DNA from: a virus
Reading direction: 5' to 3' (one strand)
Virus genome (UHGV): UHGV-0335973
Length of the DNA stretch: 38,029 bases
In this document: positions 2,500-38,029 of the stretch, one piece after another
Layout of the letters: every line of letters starts with the position of its first letter
Numbering within the stretch: position 1 is the stretch's first letter
Notes under the pieces: generated by a model
Database searches by the model: none
The model's input: only the letters and a program-made list of their open reading frames with translations
Told to the model about the DNA's origin: nothing
Program-made: the position numbers and the translations under genes

Positions 2500-3471
2500 A
2501 TGTCAATCTCCACAACGATCGTACCTCTTAATCTTCAACAAGATTTAGGGGAACAGAAGTTCTTAGGTCGTGGGTGCTTCGGTATCCACAACTACATGCA
2601 AGGTCAAGTCGTAGCTGATATTAATGGTGAAACTATCTCGGAAGAAGGGCGTTATCGTCGTTTCAACCGTGATATCAACTTGCAACTGGAGATGTTGAAT
2701 TACTGGACTCACTCTTTTCACGGTCATATTGCATCTGAAATTGAAAAGAACTTGGTTGAAACAGCAGACATTATGAACTCCATGTCTTGCTATCGTCACG
2801 TATTTACGATCACTTCGGCGAATAGTGTTGCTGTCAACCTTCGTGAGCATCCAGCAGATCAGATCTTCACAGGACTTATGCTCTTCCGTAGTATTCTGGA
2901 AGGGCAATATCGTGGAATGGATTTCCTAGCAGAAGGAATTGAAGACAGGGAAGAGTGGCTGAAGCGTAAACGCATCGGCATCGCTCTAGTGTTAGCTGGG
3001 TTGGGTCGTGACTTCTTCGGTGGATGGTCTCAACGAGGAAGAGCCAATGGGAGTAGCGAGAGCACCTCTATTGTTATTAACAACAATATGTCAGCAGCAG
3101 CATTCCTTCCTTTGGTTGTAGACTCTGATGAATATACGAAGCAAGTATGGGTTCAAAACCCTTTCGGTGTTGGTGACAACAAGGATGGTTATGTTCGCAA
3201 CCATAACCAAGATGCCTTACGAAGATTTGCTCGTGCTAAAGATCAAGACCCAGACGAGTATGAAACAATGTCAGAGTGGTTAAGACTCTGGTCCAACTGT
3301 CATGGTCACAAACGTGAATCAATAGACGACAAGTTGGGAAACATTACAGTACAAAACTTTACATCCCGACTGATTCAAAGAACTGGAGCAGATTCCGGTC
3401 TTACTCTTGAAGAAGTTGGTAACACAATCTCATCTCTCTTTTCTGAACTAGTGGAGTATTACAATGACTAA
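2500..3471 (+). CDS. hypothetical protein (323 aa)
   Basis: long ORF, overlaps next gene by 8 nt. Confidence 0.6.
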   Translation: MSISTTIVPLNLQQDLGEQKFLGRGCFGIHNYMQGQVVADINGETISEEGRYRRFNRDINLQLEMLNYWTHSFHGHIASEIEKNLVETADIMNSMSCYRHVFTITSANSVAVNLREHPADQIFTGLMLFRSILEGQYRGMDFLAEGIEDREEWLKRKRIGIALVLAGLGRDFFGGWSQRGRANGSSESTSIVINNNMSAAAFLPLVVDSDEYTKQVWVQNPFGVGDNKDGYVRNHNQDALRRFARAKDQDPDEYETMSEWLRLWSNCHGHKRESIDDKLGNITVQNFTSRLIQRTGADSGLTLEEVGNTISSLFSELVEYYND

Positions 3472-4270
3472 GCGCAATTTCTTAATAGGCAGCGACCCTG
3501 AGATGTTCGTCCGTACCAGCAACGGTATTATCACCTCTGTGGCTGGTCTGTTAGGCTGTTCTAAGGATGATAAGATCACTCTGGCTAAGGATGTTCGTCT
3601 TCAAGAGGACAACGTACTGGCTGAGTTTGATATTGACCCACAGAGCGGTTTTGAAGCGTTTAACGATAACATGCAACGTGGTATTGATCTCACCAATAAT
3701 GTCCTGAACAAACTGGACATGGAAATAGCTCCGGGTGTTAGCTCTCACATCTTCACTGAAGAAGAGATGAAAACTTTCAACGAATCAGCGTTCATCTTCG
3801 GGTGCACTCCTGATTTCAACGCCTTCACTGGTCAGAAGAATCCATCCCCGACTTCTCAGAATAAGGGACTTCGTACTGCCGGTGGTCACGTACATCTTGG
3901 TGTGGTTGGTGCTTTGGATATCACTCTGCAAACCCAGATGATGTTGGGTGTGCTGTGTGATTACTTCCTATCCCTCCCAGCAGTAATTATGGACAAAGAT
4001 ACTCGCCGTAAAGAACTCTACGGTAAAGCATCTGCAATCCGTTATAAAGACTATGGTATTGAATACCGTTCTCTGTCTAACTTCTGGATTAGTGGTCGTG
4101 AAAACCGTAAGTTTGTTTACGATCAGGTTGACAAGGTTGTTCAGCAGTGCGATATGTCCACTCTGATGGCATTGCACTCTCGTCTTCCGATTGAGAAGCT
4201 TCATGAAATCATTAACGGGAACAACGTTAAAGAAGCGGACCAGCAGATCAAACTCCTTCAGGTAGCATAA
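3464..4270 (+). CDS. amidoligase-like protein (divergent Amidoligase_2 / glutamine-synthetase-like COOH-NH2 ligase)
   Basis: N-terminal LIGSDPEMF acidic strand, GGHVHLGV and IEYRS motifs that parallel GVGIELELEG, STHVHMD and GSIEFR in the neighbouring amidoligase. Confidence 0.45.
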   Translation: MTKRNFLIGSDPEMFVRTSNGIITSVAGLLGCSKDDKITLAKDVRLQEDNVLAEFDIDPQSGFEAFNDNMQRGIDLTNNVLNKLDMEIAPGVSSHIFTEEEMKTFNESAFIFGCTPDFNAFTGQKNPSPTSQNKGLRTAGGHVHLGVVGALDITLQTQMMLGVLCDYFLSLPAVIMDKDTRRKELYGKASAIRYKDYGIEYRSLSNFWISGRENRKFVYDQVDKVVQQCDMSTLMALHSRLPIEKLHEIINGNNVKEADQQIKLLQVA

Positions 4271-4279
4271 GAGGTTATC

Positions 4280-4897
4280 GTGAGCTTAGTAGCTGATTTT
4301 TCTCATTACTATAATGGTACATGGATTGCTAAACGAGCAGGTAATATCAACCTTCCATGTTTTGTGATTGGTGTTGAGCAGAGCGGTAACTTCCGCAGTG
4401 ATGACTTCTCTCACGAAGCAGAACAGGCTCTGTACTTTGTTGTAGAGCAGTGGTACAAGAACGAGCATGGGAATCTCCGAAACACTACGATGAATATTCC
4501 AGTGTTCGACCCAACTTTGATTCTTGAATCACCTGATGTTGGTTATCTGTTCCATAACGGTAACACTGTAAGCTGGACTCATATCAACCCTGTTCGTCAG
4601 AGAGCGAAGGGTTTGATGGGTAACAAGATCCGAAACGCTCCGGGGGTTGGTCGTTCTATCTCTGGTGAAATGGTTTACAGTCTATTCAATCCTGAATTCG
4701 AAGGATTGGTTACTCGTTATATTTATATCAACCCTACGGATGGTAAGGTGCACTATAAAGGTGCACTGGTAGGACAAGTAGATCTGGAAGCGCCTCGTGA
4801 CTCTTACGGTCAGCAACCAATGCGACTTCTGGAACACTTTCATCACATTTCTGAAAACCTTAGCAATTATAATATTACGTTGGTGGATTCGTTATGA
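4280..4897 (+). CDS. hypothetical protein (205 aa, GTG start)
   Basis: ORF with AAGAGG SD; overlaps next gene (ATGA). Confidence 0.5.
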   Translation: MSLVADFSHYYNGTWIAKRAGNINLPCFVIGVEQSGNFRSDDFSHEAEQALYFVVEQWYKNEHGNLRNTTMNIPVFDPTLILESPDVGYLFHNGNTVSWTHINPVRQRAKGLMGNKIRNAPGVGRSISGEMVYSLFNPEFEGLVTRYIYINPTDGKVHYKGALVGQVDLEAPRDSYGQQPMRLLEHFHHISENLSNYNITLVDSL

Positions 4898-5997
4898 CAA
4901 CTGTAGCGCAAACTTTTGGATATCGAGAAGGTCGTTTAACTGAGGCGCATAGTTCAATTGCACTTCAGTGCGGTGTCGGTATTGAACTTGAACTCGAAGG
5001 TTCCGACCATATCGAAGCAGATATGTGGGATTGTACAGAGGATGGTTCCCTGCGTAATGGTTGTGAAATGGTATGTTCACGGCCTTACAACGGACAGGAG
5101 TTGTTAGACGCTATCAACAACCTGAGTGAAGCAGTAGCTGAATCGCACGCCGAGGGGACTTGGCGTTGCTCTACTCACGTTCATATGGATATGAGGGATG
5201 CTGATAGTAATATCCTCAAGAAAACCATTCTCGCTTGGACCTTCTATGAAAAGATGTTGTTCAAGTGTTCAGGCTACCACCGTTACCGTAGCAACTTCTG
5301 CCCTGCTTTTGCAGTGGTACAAGCACAGGTAATGAATGCCTCTGACGCATTTAACTACGACGATGAAGAGTTCTTCAACCGTCTGGTTCGTTCATGGGAT
5401 AAGTACACATCCCTGAACCTTCTGCCACTTGCCCAATACGGTTCGATTGAGTTCCGTATCAGTGAGCCTAAGTGGAAACGTGGTCAACTTCTCAATCTGG
5501 TTAACCGCTTCTTAATGTTGAAGAAGCTGGCTTTAGATAACGCAGAGATGAGCAATGATCAGTTTATTGAGCATTTAAATACTGTAAGATTTGCCCCAAT
5601 GCTTCCTTACCTTCCTCTGGATTACAATCTGGATGAATCGGATTTGCATTCAGGCTATTGTATGGCCCGTGATGTTTTGTATTGTCGTTCTCATGAAGTA
5701 GAACAGTCTGGTCGTATTCGTTTACGTCGAACCAACTCCAACGGAGAAGTTCTTGTTGACCTACGCCATATCTCAGACTTCTACGGATTCCTTGGATATG
5801 TTCGAGGGAACGCTAACAACTTGTACCAAGAGATTCTGGTTATGCTCCGTACAACTGATCTATCTACTGTACGATCTGCACCAGAGCAACGTATCCGTGC
5901 TATTTTTGACTTACTACGTGAGTCTGGTCACAGTGATAGCAATATCACAGGGTACATTCCAGACCATCTGGAAAATCAGTTAGAGCAAGCGCTGTAA
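4894..5997 (+). CDS. amidoligase (Amidoligase_2 family)
   Basis: GVGIELELEG...EDGSL..GCEMV, CSTHVHMDM, YTSLNL...GSIEFR motifs typical of the family. Confidence 0.65.
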   Translation: MTTVAQTFGYREGRLTEAHSSIALQCGVGIELELEGSDHIEADMWDCTEDGSLRNGCEMVCSRPYNGQELLDAINNLSEAVAESHAEGTWRCSTHVHMDMRDADSNILKKTILAWTFYEKMLFKCSGYHRYRSNFCPAFAVVQAQVMNASDAFNYDDEEFFNRLVRSWDKYTSLNLLPLAQYGSIEFRISEPKWKRGQLLNLVNRFLMLKKLALDNAEMSNDQFIEHLNTVRFAPMLPYLPLDYNLDESDLHSGYCMARDVLYCRSHEVEQSGRIRLRRTNSNGEVLVDLRHISDFYGFLGYVRGNANNLYQEILVMLRTTDLSTVRSAPEQRIRAIFDLLRESGHSDSNITGYIPDHLENQLEQAL

Positions 5998-6076
5998 TCA
6001 ATGGGTGCCTCTGACAAAGGGGCACAATTTAAAGGTTAATTAGATGAAAGGGTTTACCCTTCAGGTGGATTAGAAA

Positions 6077-8107
6077 ATTTGTGGCATCGTATTAGCTGGC
6101 GGTAATCTGTCAAGCACTGATTTAGACGTATTTAACCAACTCTTTTATGCTGGGGTATTCCGAGGACAACATTCCTCCGGTATCTTTGGTCAGCGTAAAA
6201 GTACTAAGGAAGTCTTCACTTATAAAGAAGCTCTTCCTTCTTTCGCATTCATCCTACAAGATGAGTACAAGAAGCACACCACTGGTGAAACAGCTTACAC
6301 TGTAGCACCTTCATGGATTGTTGGTCACAGCCGTCATGCAACGAAAGGTGCAGTTAACGCCAAGAACGCCCATCCTTTCCAACATGGTAACATCACTCTG
6401 GTTCATAACGGAACCTTGATGGACCAAGATCTGTTACCTGACAGCAAAAACTTCGAGGTAGACAGTGAGAACATCTGCCACTCTATTAACACTATTGGTG
6501 CAGCAGAAACTATTCAAAAGCTGGATGGTGCTTTCACCTTAATCTGGCATGATGCTTCTGATAACCGTCTTCATATCATCCGTAACGAAGAGCGTCCATT
6601 CCACCTCGCACGTTGTAACAGAGATTGGTTTGGTGCTTCTGAAGAAGACATGTTGATGTGGATTCTGAAGCGTTCTAGATCTCACAAGAACCGTATTGAT
6701 GAGCATTTTGAATGTAAAGTTGGTACAGAGTATATCTTTGACATGTCAAACAACAGCATGACTCTGGTTGAAGAGGTCGCCCACGAGCTTCCGGTTTTTA
6801 CGGTAGCCAATCGTTGGGGCAGTTATTACTCGAACAACTACAGCCAAAGCAACTATCAAAGTTCCTCAAAAAGCAATACAAGCAATCCTTACGACACGAA
6901 GCCGGGAGTGACAGCGGCAGACGTTCGTCGAAGAAACGCAGTGGTAAGTCAAAACAAAATCGCAAGCGATCGAAACATTGACATTCGCCGCGATATGACT
7001 GTGGAGATCACTCCGCATGAGTTCGTTCCTTATGCAACTGCTGGTGCTGTTCCTTCTCGTGGTAAGATGATTGGTTATATCTACGATGAGAAGTCTCAAG
7101 AGTACATCGAAGGTGATGTTCATAACGTAGATATTAAGGCTTATCAGGATGCACTGAAAGACCCTAAAATTATTTACCGTGGGACAGTATCCTGCATCTC
7201 CGAAGTTAATGCTATGGTTCGTTTAGTGATCACAGCCGGTCGTTTTGTTGACCCATCTCTGGAGAAAAAGGAGTCTGAGTCAACTACTGCTGACTTCGAT
7301 GATGATATCCCTTTTGATATGAATGATAGTTTCGTCAACAAGAATGGCGTTACTATCACTCGTAAATTCTGGGAAGCACACTCTCATGGCGATTGTGGTG
7401 GTTGTGACAAGCACATTGACTGGAAGGATGCACCTAAAGCAGTCTTCGCATATCAGTGCTACTGGCATCCTGAATGTCTGGAAGGTTTGACTAAACCTAA
7501 AGAGGAAGAAGAGGAGGAGACTCCTATTGGTGTTTGTGAAATCTGTGGTGAAGTTAAAACAGAAAATGAGTTCGATGATGAACTTAGTCGTCTTCGTGGT
7601 GAAGATATCTGTAAAGTCTGCGCTGTAGATGTAAAGAAGAAAGTATCTAATGCTACAATCAAAGATGGTTATGTCTGGATTAAAGCAACAGATACAACAA
7701 ACGCCCGTCGTCCTGAATTTGCTTTACGTGTAACTGAAGATATGATCGGTCGTATGACTGTATTACCTTCCTCAGCGAAACAGACAGGCATCACTCTGGA
7801 GGATGTTGTTGATGCTTATGTTGAGAAACGTAGCAACAGTATTTTTGCAATCTCAACTAAGCCAAAAAAGGAGGAACCTGCTGAGAAAGCAGGTGTGTTT
7901 CCTGAATCACGAACAGCTCTCCGCAAAACTGTTGTTAGCTTCGACGGAAACCGAAGCACTGACTTCACCAAAGCCATGTGGTCAACCCTCGGCTACTGCT
8001 CAGAGTGTTTTAAGCAGATTCCGTGGCGCGATGCTGAAAGTTGTACGCTTGGTTCTATGAATCAAGTTTATTGTAATTCTCCTAAATGTTCATTGAATAG
8101 AGGTTAA
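6077..8107 (+). CDS. class II glutamine amidotransferase-like Ntn hydrolase with C-terminal Cys-rich (zinc-ribbon-like) extension; start codon non-canonical (ATT proposed)
   Basis: in-frame CGIVLAGG...GHSRHATKGAVNAKNAHPFQHGNITLVHNGTL resembles GlmS/PurF N-terminal domain with Cys1 nucleophile; Cys codon at 6080 lies 2 codons after in-frame TAG; AGGTGG SD 8 nt upstream of ATT 6077; track ORF 6416-8107 would lack the catalytic domain. Confidence 0.55.
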   Translation: MCGIVLAGGNLSSTDLDVFNQLFYAGVFRGQHSSGIFGQRKSTKEVFTYKEALPSFAFILQDEYKKHTTGETAYTVAPSWIVGHSRHATKGAVNAKNAHPFQHGNITLVHNGTLMDQDLLPDSKNFEVDSENICHSINTIGAAETIQKLDGAFTLIWHDASDNRLHIIRNEERPFHLARCNRDWFGASEEDMLMWILKRSRSHKNRIDEHFECKVGTEYIFDMSNNSMTLVEEVAHELPVFTVANRWGSYYSNNYSQSNYQSSSKSNTSNPYDTKPGVTAADVRRRNAVVSQNKIASDRNIDIRRDMTVEITPHEFVPYATAGAVPSRGKMIGYIYDEKSQEYIEGDVHNVDIKAYQDALKDPKIIYRGTVSCISEVNAMVRLVITAGRFVDPSLEKKESESTTADFDDDIPFDMNDSFVNKNGVTITRKFWEAHSHGDCGGCDKHIDWKDAPKAVFAYQCYWHPECLEGLTKPKEEEEEETPIGVCEICGEVKTENEFDDELSRLRGEDICKVCAVDVKKKVSNATIKDGYVWIKATDTTNARRPEFALRVTEDMIGRMTVLPSSAKQTGITLEDVVDAYVEKRSNSIFAISTKPKKEEPAEKAGVFPESRTALRKTVVSFDGNRSTDFTKAMWSTLGYCSECFKQIPWRDAESCTLGSMNQVYCNSPKCSLNRG

Positions 8108-8111
8108 GTTT

Positions 8112-8345
8112 ATGGAAATCAGAAAAATGATGTTGGATAACGTTGTAACTACTCGACGTATCCCGATGACGAGCACAGGATGTGATAACCTTCGTGCAAT
8201 CCAGAAGTGGATGCAAGCTGGTATTGGTCAAGTACTTGAGACACAGGTTGAGGTTCCATTCCCAACGGTGATCAATAACGTACTTGCTGATTATGTAAAA
8301 ATCAAAGGCATTAAGGTAGAACCTCATGTCAAATCTGGTTCCTAA
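8112..8345 (+). CDS. hypothetical protein (77 aa)
   Basis: ORF in operon context. Confidence 0.45.
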   Translation: MEIRKMMLDNVVTTRRIPMTSTGCDNLRAIQKWMQAGIGQVLETQVEVPFPTVINNVLADYVKIKGIKVEPHVKSGS

Positions 8346-8550
8346 GAAACCGAAGATTACTCTCCTACAGTATTACATAGGAGTTCATATCGAATTAGTA
8401 ACGGAGCAGCGAAAGCTGTATCCGTTCGCTTTCGGTCTGATTGATGCACCATCCGATGAAGTAGAGAACGACGCGTTCAACGACTACTTCGAAATTGAAG
8501 CTCAGATTCAAAAAACTCGTAACGAAATTCTTAAACTTAAAGGTATCTAA
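8326..8550 (+). CDS. hypothetical protein (74 aa) immediately upstream of ATP-grasp gene
   Basis: ORF ends 2 nt before ATP-grasp start. Confidence 0.4.
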   Translation: MSNLVPKKPKITLLQYYIGVHIELVTEQRKLYPFAFGLIDAPSDEVENDAFNDYFEIEAQIQKTRNEILKLKGI

Positions 8551-8552
8551 CA

Positions 8553-25917: not shown

Positions 25918-26085
25918 ATGAAGAAATATAGTGTATGGATTAATGAGGAAGAAGAAGGTTTTGATGAAGTTGGAGGATGGGTAAATATCCTAAACACTGA
26001 CGACATAGAAGAGGCCGAGAAGTGCGCCCTAAACTATAACTCTGGATATTATGAAAGAAATTGGGAGTATAAGGAAGAAGTATGA
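25918..26085 (+). CDS. hypothetical acidic small protein
   Basis: ORF from track with internal ATG start. Confidence 0.3.
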   Translation: MKKYSVWINEEEEGFDEVGGWVNILNTDDIEEAEKCALNYNSGYYERNWEYKEEV

Positions 26086-26240
26086 TTTGGATTCACACTT
26101 ATAAGATTGGAAAGAAAGAGATCACCGTTGTACATCACTCTGAGGAAAGTGCAAATGCTTCTCAGGAAGTCTTGAAAGGTGAAGTTAAAACATACGTCGA
26201 AGTAAAAGCTAAATCTTGGTCATAATTAATAGGAGTAAAA

Positions 26241-26456
26241 ATGGAATACATTGATAAATATTCAAGTGAAGATTCAACAGACGCTGAAGTTTTATTTATA
26301 CTAAAAACAGACTGTCTTGAACATGGTCAACTTATCAATTTCATCGAGTTGGCAAAACTTAAAGAAGAGATCGATCAACTATATAGTGATGAGCAATCCA
26401 GATTACTTTCTCTATCCCTTCTAGGTGATTTAACTTGCGATGGTTGCATGATATGA
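26241..26456 (+). CDS. hypothetical protein (71 aa)
   Basis: ORF with AGGAG SD. Confidence 0.4.
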   Translation: MEYIDKYSSEDSTDAEVLFILKTDCLEHGQLINFIELAKLKEEIDQLYSDEQSRLLSLSLLGDLTCDGCMI

Positions 26457-26926
26457 TAGAAGATCTTCTTGATGAGTTCTTTGTTTGTGATTTATCATCT
26501 GGAAAAGTGTTCTGGAGAATTCACAACGGAACAAAATGCAGGCAAGGCGACGAGGCAGGAACTTCAAAAAAGGATGGAAGAGTACTTATTCGAGTGAAAG
26601 GAAGAGCCATTTACAGATACCACATCATTTGGTATTTTGCTAATGGCGTTTTACCTAAAGATCAAATAGATCATATTGATCGAAACCCTTCCAATGATTC
26701 CATAGGCAACCTTAGAGAAGTTAACAACGAGAATAACTCTTGGAACAAGGGTTTGAACTCTAACAACACATCAGGGGCTAAGGGTGTATACCTCAATTCA
26801 AGAGGGAAGTACATAGCCAATATACACATTAAAGGTAAAACTAAATACCTAGGAACTTTCTCAACCCTAGAGGAAGCCGTCTCTGTTAGAAACAGAGCGG
26901 AGGAAGATCACAAATTAACTATCTAA
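26435..26926 (+). CDS. freestanding HNH endonuclease with AP2-like DNA-binding domain
   Basis: IDHIDRNPSNDSIGNLR HNH motif; SGAKGVY...YIANI..KGKTKYLGTFSTLEEA AP2-like motif. Confidence 0.6.
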   Translation: MRWLHDMIEDLLDEFFVCDLSSGKVFWRIHNGTKCRQGDEAGTSKKDGRVLIRVKGRAIYRYHIIWYFANGVLPKDQIDHIDRNPSNDSIGNLREVNNENNSWNKGLNSNNTSGAKGVYLNSRGKYIANIHIKGKTKYLGTFSTLEEAVSVRNRAEEDHKLTI

Positions 26927-26935
26927 GAGGTCTTT

Positions 26936-27439
26936 ATGGCTGAAGTTTATTTTGCAGGAGATGGTCACTTAGGTCATCGCAACATCTGTAGTTTTCGTAA
27001 GCAATTTAAAACCATCGAAGAACATGACAAAGAAATTCTAGCTGCATTTGATCATGTAACTAAGCGAGACAAAATCTTCTTTACCGGTGATTGGGTGTTT
27101 GAAAAGTATGCCCTTGATATCATCGCTGAAGTAAAAGGAGAGAAGCATCTAGTCTTAGGGAACCATGACAGGTTAGAACTTCTCCCTGATATGATGAAAG
27201 TCTTCCGTAGAATCTCTGGTGATTATAAATATAAAGAGTTTTGGGTAACTCATATCCCTATTCACACTGATGAGATGAGAGGAAAGTTTAACATTTATGC
27301 TCATACACACAACCATGTAATTGATGATTGGAGATATTTCTGTACATCAATGGAGCAAATTAACTATAAAGCTGTTTCTCTGCAAGAGATTAGGAAGGTC
27401 TTTGATGAAAGAAGAAAAGAACAAGATCTCGTTATTTAA
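26936..27439 (+). CDS. calcineurin-like metallophosphoesterase
   Basis: GDGHLGH, GDW, GNHD, THIP, HTH metal-ligand motif series. Confidence 0.6.
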   Translation: MAEVYFAGDGHLGHRNICSFRKQFKTIEEHDKEILAAFDHVTKRDKIFFTGDWVFEKYALDIIAEVKGEKHLVLGNHDRLELLPDMMKVFRRISGDYKYKEFWVTHIPIHTDEMRGKFNIYAHTHNHVIDDWRYFCTSMEQINYKAVSLQEIRKVFDERRKEQDLVI

Positions 27440-27985
27440 AGAACCTGTAGTACATAAAGACTCTATCAGAGATCAATATAATGAGATGTTAAAGAAACAA
27501 GCTGATTCTAATCTTCGTTATCAGAGGATAGTAGAACAATCTAACTTTAAAGGTTTACTTGAATGGTAACTTATATTGTTTACTTCTTAGCTTTCTTAGG
27601 AATAATCTTTTTATCTATTATTCTTGAATTTGGTTTAAGTAAGTTAGTTAATTATTTAGGTAATAAGTAATTATTATTCTTTTAAATAGAGAATCAAAGT
27701 CCCTAGGAGTCCCTACAACCTAAATCAAGGATTCCTTAATTCTCTATTTTTATCTCGCAGGTGGCTCCTGCCCTTCGGTACTTGCAAGGGATTCTGTGAA
27801 TTGCCCAATATACAAGCCTGCAATAACTTTATCAGCTATACAATATATACATTACTAGTGTGTTATATCTACTACCAAAGATACTTATATTATATAGCAC
27901 TCTTATCGGTATAAGCGTAATGTATACTATACATAACCGCTCAAAGAGAGCAACAATCTTTCAAATTAAATAAGGAAATTAAAAT

Positions 27986-28732
27986 ATGTCTATGATTCCA
28001 ACTATCGCAACTGCTTCCCGTAAATCCAACTACGATGTAATCCCTGATGGTGAATACGAAGCACGTATCGTTCGTGTAGTAGGTTTGGGTGTTCACAATC
28101 GTGACCCTTGGATTGACCCGAAGACCAAAGCAGTAACTCCTAAGAATCCGGCTTTCCGTATGGATTTAGCTTTCGAGCTGATTGGTGTTGATGCTACTGG
28201 TAAAGATTCCGATGGTAAGGCATTAGAACCACGTCCGGCTTGCCAGTTCAAGAGCTATGATGTAAACCCACGAGCTAAGAACTCTGGTATTCTTGATCTC
28301 TGCAAGATGATTGACCCAAGTATTCAAGCACTGAAAGGTGATCTGTCTTGGTTCAAGGATGTTCTGTTAGGTCAGCCTGTTAACATTCTGGTTAACTCTT
28401 ATACTAACAAAGCTGGTGAAGTTAAAAACTCCATCAAGACCATTTCTCCAATCCCAACCAAATATCGTGCAGCAGTTGGTGAAGCTCGCAGTCCTCTGGT
28501 ATTCTTCGAACCATATGCTGAAACCGATGAGAACGTAGCATCCTATCAACTGATGTTCCCGTTCCAGCGCAACCTGCTTACCCAAGCTAATGACGCTAAG
28601 AACATGCCTCTGGCTGGTCGTGAAATTACTCGTGCTTCTGAAACAGAACAGAAAGAAGCTACTCCTTCAATCCCTACGATTGATAAAGAGCCTGCTTCTA
28701 CCTATGAAGATGACAACGACTCTCCTTTCTAA
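27986..28732 (+). CDS. putative ssDNA-binding protein with acidic C-terminal tail ending in Phe
   Basis: C-terminus YEDDNDSPF resembles acidic F-terminated tails of E. coli SSB and T7 gp2.5; strong RBS, long upstream intergenic region, terminator downstream. Confidence 0.45.
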   Translation: MSMIPTIATASRKSNYDVIPDGEYEARIVRVVGLGVHNRDPWIDPKTKAVTPKNPAFRMDLAFELIGVDATGKDSDGKALEPRPACQFKSYDVNPRAKNSGILDLCKMIDPSIQALKGDLSWFKDVLLGQPVNILVNSYTNKAGEVKNSIKTISPIPTKYRAAVGEARSPLVFFEPYAETDENVASYQLMFPFQRNLLTQANDAKNMPLAGREITRASETEQKEATPSIPTIDKEPASTYEDDNDSPF

Positions 28733-33555: not shown

Positions 33556-33722
33556 GAGATTGTATGGGAAATGACCAAGAACTGATTGACGAAATGTTAA
33601 AACTAGCCAACCGTCTCACAGAGATAATTAAAGAGATCAATGCAAGAAAGGAATCATACTTAGCCTCTGAAGAGAATTGGGATGTATGACGAATTTGATG
33701 GTTTTTAAAATTTAGAAACAAA

Positions 33723-33759
33723 TAAAGCCCTCTTGGATTTCTCCTTGAGGGCTTTTCTT
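33723..33759. terminator. putative bidirectional terminator between convergent transcription units
   Basis: AAGCCCTC...GAGGGCTT hairpin flanked by A-rich 5' and T-rich 3' sequence; lies between last + strand gene and stop of - strand gene. Confidence 0.45.
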
Positions 33760-33762
33760 TTA

Positions 33763-36700
33763 TCACTCCTTAGGTCGAACTCTTACACGGAGTCTCGATT
33801 GACGCTTACTGCGTTCAAGCTTCTCTGACAATGAGCCACGTTTAATCTTAGGCTTCCCTTCGTCATTAAACTTCTCCAAGAACTGCAAGTACTCAGTACG
33901 ATTCGTTGTCTTGTAAGAAGGAATCTTAATATCAGGGTTCTCTTCAATTACACGTCTCATCTTCGCTACATCATCCCTACCAAGCAACTTACTCTTAGCC
34001 TGTTCAGCTGTAGAACCAAAGATCTTCTCCAGTGCTCTGGATTTGTTACCACCTGCGGAAGAAGCACCAAGTTTAGCAATGGCAGAGTAATCATCAGCAC
34101 TAAACCAAGCTACTGGATTATCACCATACTTCTTCTTGTTTTCAGCAGCAGTCTGCAATGCACGTACAAAGCGACGGTTGTTACCAGCCTTATCTGCACC
34201 ATGAACCCTGTCTAAAACTTCAGCCACACTAGCCAACTCATCCAAGCTCTTCCCACTCAAGAAAGCTTTCTCTACTTTATCAGCAAAGACCTCTTCCTGT
34301 TGTTTAATACTTTCCAAGATATCAGAATTTGCTTGAGATCTTTCATCATCAGGCAGAGCAGAACGAATCTTCTCCATCTCCAACTCTTCCTCTTGCAGTT
34401 TCTTAATATCAGAGTCAACCTTCTGAGCCTCCTCAATAGCCTTCCTAGTATCCGCATCCAAGTTATCAAGCTTACCTTCAGTATCTCCAGTAACCTTAAC
34501 AATCTCTTTCTCGATAGGAGTCATTGATTCGTACTTCTTAGCAAACTTCTCAACATCAGCTTCGATACGAGAACGAGCATTCTGATGTTCAGTGGGAGTC
34601 ATAGGCTTCTCAAGAAGTGCATAACGGTTGTCCATATAGGAACCAGCAAATACTTCAGCATCCTCTCTAGATATGCCCTTATCTTCCATAGTACGCATCA
34701 GGCGGCGATGAATGTCATCACGTTGACGTTGTACTGCCATAAGGTCATTCTCACGCTCTTGGGCCGCTTTAAGCTCTTCACTGCGCTTAACTCTCTTGTC
34801 CACATCAAACTTACGGTTCATCTCTTCCGCTTGCTCATACATCTTATTCCACTTGGCCTGACGAGCATCTTCCTCTGCATCAGTTAAACGACGCTGACGA
34901 TCAAGGTAATCTGACTCGGCGTTGTGGATACGTTCAATGTAACTACGGAACTTCTCTGGAGGAACTGGAGAGTTCTTGTCATGGTGAGCAGCCAACTGTT
35001 TCAATGTACGAGATTCCTGAGCCTCACGAACAGGTTTAGGTAAACCTTCCATCATCTTCTCAATCTCACTCTTCTGAGCTGCAATAGCCTCTAGAGTTTT
35101 ACGTTCATTCTCAACAGCAGCCTTAGCATCTGAACGAGCCTGAGCTTTGTTTTTCAGAGTAGCAAGACGTTCTTCACGAGCTTGTATGTGTTTAGCAAAA
35201 GCTTCGTACTGAGAGTTCTTGTTAGCTTTGTTGAAGGCATTCACTTCTCTGTTGTAGGTGTTAATAAACCCATCCCAAATATCCTTCATCTGACCAACTT
35301 CCAAAGCCTCTTCCCTACCAGCCTTCTCTGAAGACTTAAACTTCCCGTCTACAAAGTCATTCATCAGCTTACGCATAGCGTCTTTCTGAGCAGGACGTAA
35401 AGGTTCTGAATCAATCAAAGCATCAATCTCAGACTGAAGCTCTTTCTTCTGGTCAACCAGCTTAGGAGCATTCTTGTTATCGAAAGCTTTATTCTCTTCA
35501 AGAGCTTGTTGATACAGTCTATCAAACTCATCTTCACGCTGCTTCTGATACAACCTTTCAGCACGACGTTTCAGACTATCCAAGTTAGTTACGTTCCCAC
35601 CTAAACCTTTCTCTTCAGCACGTAATGCCTTAGTAGCAATATCTTCTGGCAGACCACGTTCCTTAACCCATTCAGCAAAATTAGTTCGTACAGTGTTGTT
35701 CTTAGCAGTAGCAATACCTTGCTGAGAAGCCAGCTGGTTACGAGCCATTTCTTCATGACGTTCAGTGTTGATAGCATTATCTTCCTGACGAATACGACGC
35801 ATCAACTCTTTAGGATCACCCTTGTAAGCCAAGAAGTTTTCAGCAGTAGCTTTAGCCTTAGCAGCCTTAGAGTACAAAGAACGAGCAAAACGTTCTGCAC
35901 GATCTTTAGTAGCCTGACGAGCAGCACTAGACATAGCAGCTAAACGTTCTACACCACTTGCCGGTTTAACGTCCTGTACAGCTTCCTTAGGAGCTTTAGG
36001 AGCACTAGCAGGTAATGGATCAGCTTGTCTTAGAGAACTAGCTTTGACCATATCGTTTGAGTCAACCAAATTATGGTTGCGCAAAAACTGTTGCTCAGCC
36101 GGGGTGAACTGGTTTAGGCGAAGAGCAATGTTGCCATTTAAATCTTGAGAAAGTATCCCATCTTCAGTGTAGTGAGAGAGAGATTCTTTAGTAACAGAAG
36201 ATACATCCTCTGATGAAACCTTTTGGCCCTCTTCTTGAGCACGTTGCTGTTCCATTGCACGACGTTCCTCTAAAGGATTACGAGCAGGGAGTGGTTCAGC
36301 CTGTGGAGTCTGTTCGACCGGAACTTCTTGAGCTGCTGCTGCCTCTTCTTCAGCACGACGCTGTTCAGCCTGACGGATAGCACGTCTTTGCGCAACTAAA
36401 TCACGAGCTGTAAGAGGAGATTCTTGAGGAGCAGAAGAAGGAAGATTTTCTTCCGTCACAGTACTAGAAGAAGGCTCCCGAACCGGTTCGGTTTCTACGT
36501 CATTTTGCGTCTTAAATTTAATGTCGTCAACAACTGGCTCTTCTTCCATTTTAGCACGAGCTTCATCAGCAGTAGATTTAGCACGAGCAACTTCCAAATC
36601 ACCACGAGCCAGAGAGCGGATAGCTTCACTGTTAGACTCTTGTTGCTTAACACGTTGAGAACGGGCACGCTGAGAAGAGAAGCGATTCAGAGCATATTTA

Positions 36701-38016
36701 GCAGCACCAAGTGTATTCATAACCAGACTAGGAGAAGAAGCCTCACGGAAGCCATCATCAGTCAGGGAAGTCCAACCACGGTCTTGGTTGCTCATGAACT
36801 TAGCTGTATTATTCAGAGTGTAAGCATCTTGGATAGGATTAAAACCTTTAGGCATACCCTTCAGTTTCTTCAACCCACCAATAGCTTTCTTCATCTCTGG
36901 AGAAACGTTATCAGCCATCTTCTGTAGTTCAGCAGCTTTCTCTACGAAGTTGTTAAAGTCTTCACCATCACGAGCTTTGAATCGATTTGCTTCGTTATAG
37001 AAAGTCTTGTACGCATCAATGAAATCACGGTCAGCTTGTGTGCGATTCTTAATATCAATCGGACTGCCAGTAAAGTCACCAGAAGCTCGGAGAGAAACTA
37101 ACTCACGATCAAGATTATCCAGAACATCTGTAAGAGCTTTAGTGTTATCCTTGGTGTAGTCAGCCATTGCATCTTTCATAGCGACAGCTTGCTTCTGGTT
37201 GTGCTCATTATCAGCGAAGGCTTTACCACGAGTCTTAGCCGGAGAAGATAAAGGGTTAAGGCCCGGAATGTTGGAATGTTCTTTCTGAACAGAAGCAGCT
37301 TTCTCAGCACGAGCTTGGTCAGTATTAAGAATACGCTGAGCAGCAGGAGAATCTACAGCAACAGCATCTGTGATACGGAATCCGTTCTCGTCGAGAAGGT
37401 TCAGAGCAGAAGCAGCGTTAGCAGTTTCAGCTTTAGAGTAAGCCTCTTTCAGCTCATCAATATTCTTAGCACCACGAATCAGTTCATCATCAGCAGCAAT
37501 ATCAGTCTTCGCATACTCTGGAGTGTTCTTGAAGACAGCAGAATCCGGACGGCTAATCAAACCATGAACCCCACCAACTGCGCCACCAAATGCAGCACCC
37601 ATAGCCCCTTCTTCTATAACCCCTTCCAATGTCTTAGCTAGATCATTGTCATCACCATACTTGTTCTGAACCTCAGCAGCGCCAACAAGAGCACCACCTT
37701 TAGCACCAGCCACTGCGTTACTAGCAACGTTCTGACCAATACGACCAAGAGCTGATTCAGCTGTCCCTACAGCACCTGGAAGGATTCTTTGAGCTGCATA
37801 GTTAGCACCACCAACTAGGGCTGCATCTAGAACAGACTTATCTTCCCCCTCTTTAGGGGTTTGGTCTGCATACGCACGACCGGTCTCACGACCTGCGATG
37901 ATAGCAGCGGCAGCTAACGGGTTAGCAACTGTCAGACCAATATCGGCAACCACCCCAGCATACTGACCAGCAGATTTACCAATCCCATCCTCAATCTTAT
38001 CCATACGTTCTTTCAA
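33763..38016 (-). CDS. giant virion-associated protein (putative internal/ejection protein), 1417 aa or longer
   Basis: single uninterrupted - strand ORF; N-terminal Gly/Ala-rich hydrophobic segments, long charged coiled-coil-like central and C-terminal regions; no stop between start 38016 and window end. Confidence 0.5.
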   Translation of the reverse strand: MKERMDKIEDGIGKSAGQYAGVVADIGLTVANPLAAAAIIAGRETGRAYADQTPKEGEDKSVLDAALVGGANYAAQRILPGAVGTAESALGRIGQNVASNAVAGAKGGALVGAAEVQNKYGDDNDLAKTLEGVIEEGAMGAAFGGAVGGVHGLISRPDSAVFKNTPEYAKTDIAADDELIRGAKNIDELKEAYSKAETANAASALNLLDENGFRITDAVAVDSPAAQRILNTDQARAEKAASVQKEHSNIPGLNPLSSPAKTRGKAFADNEHNQKQAVAMKDAMADYTKDNTKALTDVLDNLDRELVSLRASGDFTGSPIDIKNRTQADRDFIDAYKTFYNEANRFKARDGEDFNNFVEKAAELQKMADNVSPEMKKAIGGLKKLKGMPKGFNPIQDAYTLNNTAKFMSNQDRGWTSLTDDGFREASSPSLVMNTLGAAKYALNRFSSQRARSQRVKQQESNSEAIRSLARGDLEVARAKSTADEARAKMEEEPVVDDIKFKTQNDVETEPVREPSSSTVTEENLPSSAPQESPLTARDLVAQRRAIRQAEQRRAEEEAAAAQEVPVEQTPQAEPLPARNPLEERRAMEQQRAQEEGQKVSSEDVSSVTKESLSHYTEDGILSQDLNGNIALRLNQFTPAEQQFLRNHNLVDSNDMVKASSLRQADPLPASAPKAPKEAVQDVKPASGVERLAAMSSAARQATKDRAERFARSLYSKAAKAKATAENFLAYKGDPKELMRRIRQEDNAINTERHEEMARNQLASQQGIATAKNNTVRTNFAEWVKERGLPEDIATKALRAEEKGLGGNVTNLDSLKRRAERLYQKQREDEFDRLYQQALEENKAFDNKNAPKLVDQKKELQSEIDALIDSEPLRPAQKDAMRKLMNDFVDGKFKSSEKAGREEALEVGQMKDIWDGFINTYNREVNAFNKANKNSQYEAFAKHIQAREERLATLKNKAQARSDAKAAVENERKTLEAIAAQKSEIEKMMEGLPKPVREAQESRTLKQLAAHHDKNSPVPPEKFRSYIERIHNAESDYLDRQRRLTDAEEDARQAKWNKMYEQAEEMNRKFDVDKRVKRSEELKAAQERENDLMAVQRQRDDIHRRLMRTMEDKGISREDAEVFAGSYMDNRYALLEKPMTPTEHQNARSRIEADVEKFAKKYESMTPIEKEIVKVTGDTEGKLDNLDADTRKAIEEAQKVDSDIKKLQEEELEMEKIRSALPDDERSQANSDILESIKQQEEVFADKVEKAFLSGKSLDELASVAEVLDRVHGADKAGNNRRFVRALQTAAENKKKYGDNPVAWFSADDYSAIAKLGASSAGGNKSRALEKIFGSTAEQAKSKLLGRDDVAKMRRVIEENPDIKIPSYKTTNRTEYLQFLEKFNDEGKPKIKRGSLSEKLERSKRQSRLRVRVRPKE

Positions 38017-38029
38017 GAGATTTTGAGCG

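What the first reader, a model, noticed from the sequence alone, without database searches (positions are those of the whole stretch)
33763..38016. Giant coiled-coil protein with glycine-zipper-like N-terminus, possibly truncated by the window edge
The 1417-aa - strand ORF has N-terminal Gly/Ala-rich hydrophobic stretches (GVVADIGLTVANPLAAAAIIAG; GAAFGGAVGGVHGLI) followed by very long charged, Glu/Lys/Arg/Ala/Gln-rich helical regions. This is consistent with an internal virion or ejection protein that spans the cell envelope, or a tape-measure-like protein. The reading frame is open upstream of the first start to the window end, so the gene may be longer.
Basis: partly seen in the sequence, partly recalled or inferred. 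Interest (0 to 1): 0.5.

Follow-up and report, generated by a model that had tools for sequence, protein, structure and literature searches.

The report
Known giant phage DNA-ejection protein, truncated
This is the 3' 93% of the gene for the largest ejection protein of a phiEco32/SU10-like (Kuravirus) coliphage, whose near-identical ortholog is already known to be packed in the virion and released with the DNA. The find is therefore ordinary, apart from a small inserted module that it shares with the giant virion RNA polymerase of unrelated N4-like phages.

Summary
A 1417-codon minus-strand ORF (33763-38016) stays open to the window edge, and the quoted Gly/Ala-rich strings are present. The window is Kuravirus DNA. 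The ORF is the ortholog (93-96% identity) of phiEco32 gp26 / SU10 gp24 (1473 aa; 1526 aa in the closest relative), so about 105 N-terminal codons lie beyond the window.

Published SU10 work found this protein in virions (116 peptides, 73% coverage) and missing from genome-release intermediates, so it counts as an ejection protein. The tape-measure alternative is not supported, and "coiled coil" overstates an all-alpha protein with few heptad repeats.

- The family is narrow and has no Pfam domain.
- It is always the last gene of a conserved needle/DUF6453/SLT/three-protein cassette.
- It has no cysteine in 13 of 13 members.
- It has conserved GxxxGxxxG glycine zippers.
- Its N-terminal ~270 residues match weakly but collinearly the LUZ24 gp50 / Pa223 gp53 family (putative inner-membrane ejection component).
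- There is no sequence or fold match to T7 gp16.

This phage lineage carries a 53-aa net insertion in the disordered linker that is 67% identical to a segment of Cbunavirus (N4-like) virion RNA polymerases. Its function is unknown. Overall the finding is already known and of low-to-moderate interest.

The parts
33763..38029 (-). 3' part (residues 106-1526 in the numbering of the closest full-length relative, P0001) of the giant ejection-protein gene, ortholog of phiEco32 gp26 / SU10 gp24. Stop TGA at 33763-33765. The 5' ~315 nt lie beyond the window.
   Evidence: PHROG 14629 E=0
37549..38028 (-). Gly/Ala-rich amphipathic helical region (window-protein residues 1-160). It holds conserved GxxxGxxxG glycine zippers at residues 17-25 (37954-37980), 108-116 (37681-37707) and 144-156 (37561-37599), and the one near-transmembrane hydrophobic segment (residues 23-48).
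   Evidence: Collinear weak profile match to the N-terminus of the LUZ24 gp50 family.
36544..37536 (-). Helical domain I (window residues ~165-495). This is the best-predicted part of the N-terminal model (pLDDT 70-92 for full-length residues 270-520).
35959..36543 (-). Hypervariable, Pro/Glu/Gln/Ala-rich, low-confidence linker (window residues ~496-690). It contains two copies of a 'P-L-T/P-A-R-x-x-L/V-x-x-R-R-A' motif (residues 538-562 and 579-600, i.e. 36229-36417).
   Evidence: 1, 2, 3 or 5 repeat copies in different relatives
36016..36225 (-). Inserted module (window residues 602-671). It is absent from phiEco32 and SU10, present in only 4 Kuravirus records, and 67% identical to residues 935-1004 of Cbunavirus (N4-like) virion RNA polymerases. 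At DNA level it is a clean replacement of 42 nt by 201 nt (about 36027-36227).
33829..35961 (-). Helical domain II (window residues ~690-1400). It is all alpha, with helices of 84 and 67 residues and a mean pLDDT around 75.
33766..33828 (-). Conserved basic C-terminal tail (...RSKRQSRLRVRVRPKE; 43% K+R in the last 21 residues). A basic K/R-V/I-K/R tail is present in all family members.
33716..33755 (.). Terminator-like hairpin 8 nt after the stop codon: a 9-bp G+C-rich stem (33747-33755 / 33724-33732) followed by a U-rich tract. It lies between the convergent late and middle gene blocks.
   Evidence: -19 kcal/mol, z = -3.95. SU10 has an annotated terminator at the same place. The consensus scanner missed it because of its loop limit.

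Best explanation
Shown (partly by published work on the 93%-identical ortholog): this is the largest of the five ejection proteins of a Kuravirus (phiEco32 gp26 / SU10 gp24). It is made late, packed inside the prolate head with the DNA, and leaves the particle when the genome is released. Inferred mechanism: after the tail needle is shed, the cysteine-free, all-helical protein is threaded through the portal/nozzle channel into the periplasm. There its conserved N-terminal Gly/Ala-rich glycine-zipper helices insert into the inner membrane. The two helical domains, joined by a flexible linker, contribute the inner-membrane/cytoplasm-proximal end of the trans-envelope DNA conduit. This is the role proposed for T7 gp16, Pa223 gp53 / LUZ24 gp50 and, in N4-like phages, the flanking domains of the vRNAP. 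The lytic transglycosylase that T7 fuses to gp16 is a separate protein here (phiEco32 gp22). The basic C-terminal tail may contact the DNA. The extra 66-70 aa module in this lineage is an accessory acquired by recombination within the disordered linker.
For: Identity and location: tblastn gives 93-96% identity over 100% of the query to Kuravirus genomes. PHROG 14629 matches at E=0. In phiEco32 and SU10 it is the last gene of the late operon, after needle, membrane protein, SLT, two 'DNA ejection proteins' and a 551-aa protein. The same cassette is found around a 25-30%-identical relative on a 90-kb metagenomic contig. Virion and ejection status of the ortholog: PMC4281155 Table 2 and PMC9509320 text and Suppl. 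Table 1. Features of an ejected protein: zero Cys in 13 of 13 family members, against 1.8% Cys in the other window ORFs (P about 4e-12). In phiEco32 exactly gp22-gp26 are Cys-free while gp21 has 6 Cys, which matches the SU10 gp20-24 ejection set. N4 and DEV vRNAPs are likewise reported to be Cys-free (PMC11445570). All-alpha models. Membrane-active N-terminus: 4 GxxxGxxxG motifs against 0.23 expected, at conserved alignment positions with invariant Gly residues. Link to the putative inner-membrane component of Bruynogheviruses: hhalign of the gp26 family against the LUZ24 gp50 family gives probability 81%, P = 1.2e-5, 269 collinear columns at both N-termini. Reversed controls score at most 32 and 20 column-shuffled controls at most 23, against 59 for the real comparison. 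gp50 homologs are also Cys-free and have 5 glycine zippers in the same region. The role proposed for Pa223 gp53 is in 10.1101/2025.06.11.659172.
Confidence: 0.6

Rival explanations
1. It is a cytoplasm-entering pilot or DNA-escort protein rather than a channel component. It leaves with the leading genome end, binds it through the basic C-tail and charged helices, and protects or pulls the DNA, or acts on a host target.
For: The basic C-terminal tail is conserved across the family. The helices are highly charged. The protein shares a module with the N4-like vRNAP, which does enter the cell (PMC11445570). There is no classical transmembrane helix apart from one borderline segment.
Against: No DNA-binding or enzymatic domain was detected. 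The most conserved part of the family is the glycine-zipper N-terminus, which is more typical of membrane insertion. The two roles are not mutually exclusive.
Confidence: 0.22
2. It forms the periplasmic tunnel (a T7 gp15-like role), using its very long helices to span the periplasm, while another cassette protein makes the inner-membrane contact.
For: Helices of 67-84 residues (10-12 nm) are predicted. SU10 authors propose that ejection proteins extend the nozzle across the periplasm.
Against: In T7-like, Bruynoghevirus and N4-like cassettes the tunnel protein is the mid-sized one (500-900 aa) encoded just upstream of the giant protein. The phiEco32 551-aa gp25 occupies that position. No fold match to gp15-type structures was found.
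Confidence: 0.12
3. It is a tape-measure or ruler protein that sets tail length, or the length of the unusually long prolate (C3) head.
For: It is a very long helical protein in a phage with a 140-nm prolate head. A few Foldseek hits are to TMPs.
Against: This is a podovirus without a tail tube. There is no TMP Pfam or PHROG hit. Foldseek probabilities for the TMP hits are at most 0.04. Isometric-headed relatives (LUZ24, T7) have comparably large ejection proteins. The linker length varies by more than 50 aa among Kuraviruses with similar genome sizes. The protein leaves the head on ejection.
Confidence: 0.04

Closest known systems
phiEco32 gp26 (YP_001671771.1) / SU10 gp24 (YP_009152875.1), PHROG 14629
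   Same: Orthologs with 93% identity over the whole window fragment, the same domain order and the same genomic position, followed by the same terminator. SU10 gp24 is experimentally a virion protein lost on genome release.
   Different: The window copy (like SDYTW1-F1-2-2_3, PE006 and VTCCBPA_211) has 201 nt in the linker where phiEco32 has 42 nt, adding a 53-aa net module. The window lacks the first ~105 codons.
LUZ24 gp50 / Pa223 gp53 family (PHROG 6958; Bruynoghevirus, Bjornvirus, Krylovvirus): putative T7-gp16-like inner-membrane ejection protein
   Same: It is the largest virion-borne protein and follows a ~500-aa protein in the ejection cassette (its cassette ends with one or two small downstream genes), and it is Cys-free. 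It has a cluster of GxxxGxxxG motifs in the N-terminal 120-320 residues. There is a weak collinear profile match over ~270 N-terminal columns (probability 81%, P = 1.2e-5, controls much lower).
   Different: No detectable similarity beyond the N-terminal region. It is 1050 aa against 1470-1530 aa. The neighbouring genes are not detectably similar. Membership is not established.
T7 gp16 (internal virion protein D)
   Same: It is the largest, last-encoded internal or ejection protein of a podovirus, mostly helical, and thought to reach the inner membrane.
   Different: No sequence, profile or fold similarity. T7 gp16 has an N-terminal lytic transglycosylase, which in Kuraviruses is a separate 260-aa protein. 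T7 gp16 has no GxxxGxxxG motif.
N4-like virion RNA polymerase (Cbunavirus: Nepra, CB1, CB4, phiA41, Possum, EK8)
   Same: It is a giant, ejected, last-in-cassette protein. It shares one 58-70 aa module at 59-67% identity, which in both proteins sits inside a disordered Pro/Ala/Gln linker.
   Different: Nothing else is similar. There is no RNA polymerase domain here, and hhalign against the vRNAP N-terminal 1100 aa is negative.

Membership tests
Kuravirus gp26 / SU10 gp24 ejection protein (PHROG 14629) | Full-length sequence similarity to family members | tested here: met
   PHROG 14629 E=0, 2943 bits. 93-96% identity over 100% of the query. Alignment.
Kuravirus gp26 / SU10 gp24 ejection protein (PHROG 14629) | Last gene of the late structural/ejection cassette, followed by a terminator and convergent middle genes | tested here: met
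   The downstream hairpin and convergent plus-strand genes are in the window. The upstream cassette is seen only in orthologous genomes and in a distant relative, because it lies outside the window.
Kuravirus gp26 / SU10 gp24 ejection protein (PHROG 14629) | Present in virions and released with the genome | not testable with these tools
   Published for SU10 gp24 only. The Cys-free signature is consistent with it.
T7 gp16-type internal virion protein D | N-terminal lytic transglycosylase domain | tested here: not met
   No Pfam hit in any of 8 family members. The SLT domain is in the separate phiEco32 gp22.
T7 gp16-type internal virion protein D | Sequence/profile or fold similarity to gp16 | tested here: not met
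LUZ24 gp50 / Pa223 gp53 family | Profile-profile similarity | tested here: inconclusive
   N-terminal 269 columns: probability 81%, P = 1.2e-5, score 59, against at most 32 (reversed) and at most 23 (column-shuffled) controls. Nothing over the remaining ~75% of the protein.
Tail tape measure protein | TMP family domains and a position between tail-assembly chaperones and distal tail genes of a long-tailed phage | tested here: not met
   No TMP hit in Pfam or PHROGs. The genome is a podovirus. BFVD TMP hits have probability at most 0.04.
N4-like virion RNA polymerase | Central T7-like RNAP domain and vRNAP-wide similarity | tested here: not met
   Only residues 602-671 match. The vRNAP N-terminal 1100 aa give no hhalign match.
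Canonical coiled-coil protein | Extended heptad (a/d) periodicity | tested here: inconclusive
   A crude a/d-occupancy test found 13 windows against 2.1 +/- 4.2 in shuffles (maximum 18), confined to residues ~933-996 and 1149-1178. No dedicated coiled-coil predictor was available. AF2 shows long helices.
Glycine-zipper membrane-insertion motif | Conserved GxxxGxxxG in hydrophobic or amphipathic helices | tested here: met
   4 motifs against 0.23 expected (0 of 500 shuffles reached 4). Invariant Gly at 126/130, 213/217/221 and 253/257 in 18 sequences down to 25% identity. Actual membrane insertion was not tested, and hydrophobicity is only borderline.

The most novel reading that the evidence does not exclude
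The 58-70 aa module is a portable docking domain. It sits in the disordered linker of this lineage's giant ejection protein and also, 59-67% identical, in the disordered linker between the N-terminal and polymerase domains of Cbunavirus virion RNA polymerases. Unrelated podoviruses would have exchanged it to tether their largest ejected protein to a common partner, such as an enterobacterial envelope or cytoplasmic factor, or a conserved virion element such as the portal barrel. If so, giant ejection proteins evolve by shuffling small folded 'beads' within their linkers.
Probability: 0.2. Interest if true: 0.55.

Novelty: already known. Interest (0 to 1): 0.25.

Why it matters
The main finding only re-identifies a protein that the SU10 and phiEco32 literature already lists as a virion-borne ejection protein, so it changes little. 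Three by-products may help people working on podovirus genome delivery. First, a simple signature (Cys-free, N-terminal conserved peptide, glycine-zipper cluster, basic C-tail, last gene of the cassette) picks out exactly the experimentally defined ejection set. Second, a weak but control-tested N-terminal link between the Kuravirus giant protein and the Bruynoghevirus gp50/gp53 family suggests a shared membrane-insertion device that is distinct from T7 gp16. Third, a small module is shared between a Kuravirus ejection protein and N4-like vRNAPs, which offers a concrete handle (deletion, pull-down) on what the disordered linkers of these giant proteins do.

Tried and rejected
- Pfam on the window protein, on 8 family members and on the module alone gave nothing.
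- phmmer/hmmsearch against PDB sequences, with the protein and with the module profile, gave only chance-level hits.
- hhalign against T7 gp16 and against the first 1100 aa of the Nepra vRNAP was negative.
- BLASTP of phiEco32 gp25 against LUZ24 gp51 and of gp24 against LUZ24 gp53 was not significant, so cassette equivalence rests on order and size only.
- Foldseek against BFVD found the protein itself, then low-TM (0.1-0.25) helical matches including Salmonella phage 7-11 G0X4V7 at E = 5.5e-3. These are not trustworthy.
- The word-indexed protein search with the 70-aa module returned no candidates, a limitation of the tool for short queries.
- The consensus terminator scan missed the hairpin, so it was checked by folding instead.
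- The AF2 model of the module was low-confidence (pLDDT 29-58), so no fold could be assigned.
- The database names attached to orthologs ('TolA protein', 'erythrocyte binding protein 1', 'putative liver stage antigen', 'Nuclear Pore Complex') were treated as composition-driven mislabels. No domain search supports any of them.
- The head-length ruler idea was considered and rejected (see rival explanations).
Full report
**1. Observation**

The ORF exists as described: 33763..38016, minus strand, 1417 aa from a TTG. Translating 33763-38028 shows the frame open through the last complete codon of the window, and both quoted Gly/Ala-rich strings are present. The first 200 residues are 33-34% Gly+Ala. 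The rest is rich in Glu/Asp/Lys/Arg/Ala/Gln. There are 0 Cys in 1421 residues.

**2. Identity**

tblastn against 50,697 phage records finds 114 records. Of these, 98 cover at least 80% of the query, nearly all of them Kuravirus-like coliphages and Shigella phages. The best matches are 93-96% identical over 100% of the query. The orthologs are phiEco32 gp26 (phi32_26, 1473 aa) and SU10 gp24. PHROG 14629 ('unknown function') matches at E=0.

In both reference genomes the match begins 315 nt inside the CDS, so the window lacks about 105 N-terminal codons. The closest full-length relative (P0001, 96% identity) is 1526 aa, which equals 105 + 1421. The TTG at 38016 is an internal codon.

Immediately after the stop codon lies a 9-bp G+C-rich hairpin followed by a U-rich tract (-19 kcal/mol, z = -3.95). 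It sits where SU10 has an annotated terminator, between the convergent late and middle gene blocks.

**3. What is already known**

- SU10 proteomics detected CDS24 (163 kDa) with 73.2% coverage and 116 peptides, the most of any protein (PMC4281155).
- The SU10 cryo-EM study lists gp24 (1473 aa) as 'in virion: yes, detected by MS: yes' (Suppl. Table 1).
[quoted passage not shown] No density could be assigned to them (PMC9509320).
- A Kuravirus genomics paper repeats this assignment for the equivalent YF01 genes (PMC9965538).

Its own refutation criterion, absence from virions, fails for the ortholog.

**4. Family and context**

The family is narrow.

- An exhaustive HMMER scan of 1.84 billion 50%-identity representatives with residues 1-1200 found only 10 representatives.
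- A profile search added about a dozen relatives at 25-40% identity on 80-90 kb metagenomic contigs.
- These distant forms have no cultured representative in the phage collection searched: their only matches there are Kuraviruses at about 30% identity.

Around one distant member the gene order is nozzle (Big_2) – Phage_Tail_Tip – DUF6453 – SLT – 335 aa – 324 aa – 572 aa – giant protein, followed by convergent genes. This is the same cassette as phiEco32 gp19-26.

**5. Anatomy**

From the alignments and AF2 models, in full-length numbering:

- **(i) N-terminal peptide.** A conserved peptide (W7, Y16, AGGxIP).
- **(ii) Gly/Ala-rich helical region, ~55-265.** It has invariant glycines and four GxxxGxxxG motifs, against 0.23 expected. 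One segment has Kyte-Doolittle 1.83; the others are amphipathic.
- **(iii) Helical bundle, ~270-520.** Well predicted (pLDDT 70-92).
- **(iv) Hypervariable linker.** Low-confidence and rich in Pro/Glu/Gln. It carries 1, 2, 3 or 5 copies of a 'PLTAR(D/E)LVxxRR' motif in different relatives.
- **(v) All-alpha C-terminal region, ~700 aa.** Helices reach 84 residues.
- **(vi) Basic C-terminal tail.** Conserved across the family.

A crude heptad test found little canonical coiled coil. There is no Pfam domain in any member.

All 13 members examined are cysteine-free, against 1.8% Cys in the other window ORFs (P about 4e-12). In phiEco32 exactly gp22-gp26 are Cys-free and gp21 is not, which mirrors the SU10 ejection set. 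N4 and DEV vRNAPs are reported to be Cys-free too.

**6. Comparison with other ejection systems**

- **T7 gp16:** no profile similarity and no fold match. The T7 gp16-type lytic transglycosylase is a separate gene in Kuraviruses.
- **N4-like vRNAP N-terminal domain:** no similarity.
  - A 16-sequence against 5-sequence hhalign gives probability 81%, P = 1.2e-5, with 269 collinear columns from the very N-terminus through the glycine-zipper region.
  - Reversed controls score at most 32 and 20 column-shuffled controls at most 23, against 59 for the real comparison.
  - The gp50 family is also Cys-free and has five glycine zippers in the same region.
  - I read this as probable distant relatedness, or at least a shared device, limited to the N-terminal region. 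It does not establish membership.

**7. Mechanism**

- **Shown for the ortholog:** the protein is packaged in the head and released with the DNA.
- **Inferred:** it is threaded through the tail channel as a Cys-free helical protein. The glycine-zipper N-terminus inserts into the inner membrane. The protein forms the inner end of the trans-envelope conduit, and the basic tail may contact DNA.
- **Rivals:** a cytoplasmic pilot or DNA-escort role (not exclusive with the main model), a periplasmic tunnel role (less likely because gp25 holds that position), and a tape-measure or head-ruler role (rejected).

**8. The one unexpected item**

Relative to phiEco32, the window protein has a sharply bounded replacement of 42 nt by 201 nt in the linker, a net gain of 53 aa.

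- That block (window residues 602-671) is 67% identical (E = 2e-24) to residues 935-1004 of the 3693-aa virion RNA polymerase of Pectobacterium phage Nepra. It is 59-67% identical to the same segment in every Cbunavirus vRNAP hit in the phage database.
- Four IMG/VR contigs with the module are also Cbunavirus-like vRNAPs.
- Among Kuraviruses only 4 records carry it.
- In both protein types it lies within a disordered Pro/Ala/Gln-rich linker.
- It matches no Pfam family or PDB sequence, and its AF2 confidence is low.

The most parsimonious reading is an old transfer of a small module between the giant ejection-protein genes of two unrelated enterobacterial podovirus groups, probably from a Cbunavirus-like source. 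Its function is unknown, and a docking domain is a hypothesis only. I found no paper describing it in the library searched, but that search is not exhaustive.

**9. Verdict**

Novelty is 'already known'. Interest is low to moderate (0.25), carried mostly by the shared module and the N-terminal link to the gp50/gp53 family.

Noticed in passing
window 36016-36225 (minus strand); L003 12001-12210; L004 12001-12219: A 58-70 aa module in the linker of the giant protein is 59-67% identical to a segment (about residues 935-1004) of Cbunavirus (N4-like) virion RNA polymerases. It is absent from phiEco32 and SU10 and present in only 4 Kuravirus records. At DNA level it is a clean swap of 42 nt for 201 nt.
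   Followed up: yes
window 36229-36417 (minus strand); alignment A1 columns ~700-1100: The disordered linker carries a tandemly repeated short motif (PLTAR(D/E)LVxxRRA...). Copy number varies: 1 (P0118/P0119), 2 (most Kuraviruses), 3 (P0121), 5 (P0122). The 25-30%-identity group instead repeats a 'DQxLVRxPRRP' motif. These may be short linear binding motifs or merely low-complexity expansion.
   Followed up: partly
L001 (phiEco32) 3070-13107: Cysteine content separates the experimentally defined ejection proteins from their neighbour. gp22-gp26 have 0 Cys each (2,956 residues in total), while gp21 (SU10 gp19, not found in virions) has 6. This could serve as a cheap predictor of ejected proteins.
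   Followed up: partly
window 33716-33755: A strong hairpin plus U-rich tract lies between the convergent late and middle gene blocks (likely a bidirectional terminator). The consensus scanner missed it because its loop contains an inner 3-bp stem.
   Followed up: yes
L007 1-14050 (JGI 3300031419 contig, 90 kb): Uncultured ~80-90 kb phages carry the complete Kuravirus-type nozzle/needle/DUF6453/SLT/ejection cassette, with a 1349-aa giant protein only 25-30% identical. No cultured phage in the collection matches them more closely than Kuraviruses do.
   Followed up: partly
GenBank records under hits H26, H52, H64; SU10 Suppl. Table 1: Orthologs are annotated as 'TolA protein', 'erythrocyte binding protein 1', 'putative liver stage antigen' and 'Nuclear Pore Complex'. 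These are composition-driven mislabels that no domain search supports.
   Followed up: yes
window 26000-28000: There is a local G+C dip (0.35 against ~0.42). Coverage among Kuravirus genomes is variable over a stretch annotated with a homing endonuclease and a phosphoesterase, so this is probably a mobile or variable insert in the middle-gene region.
   Followed up: partly
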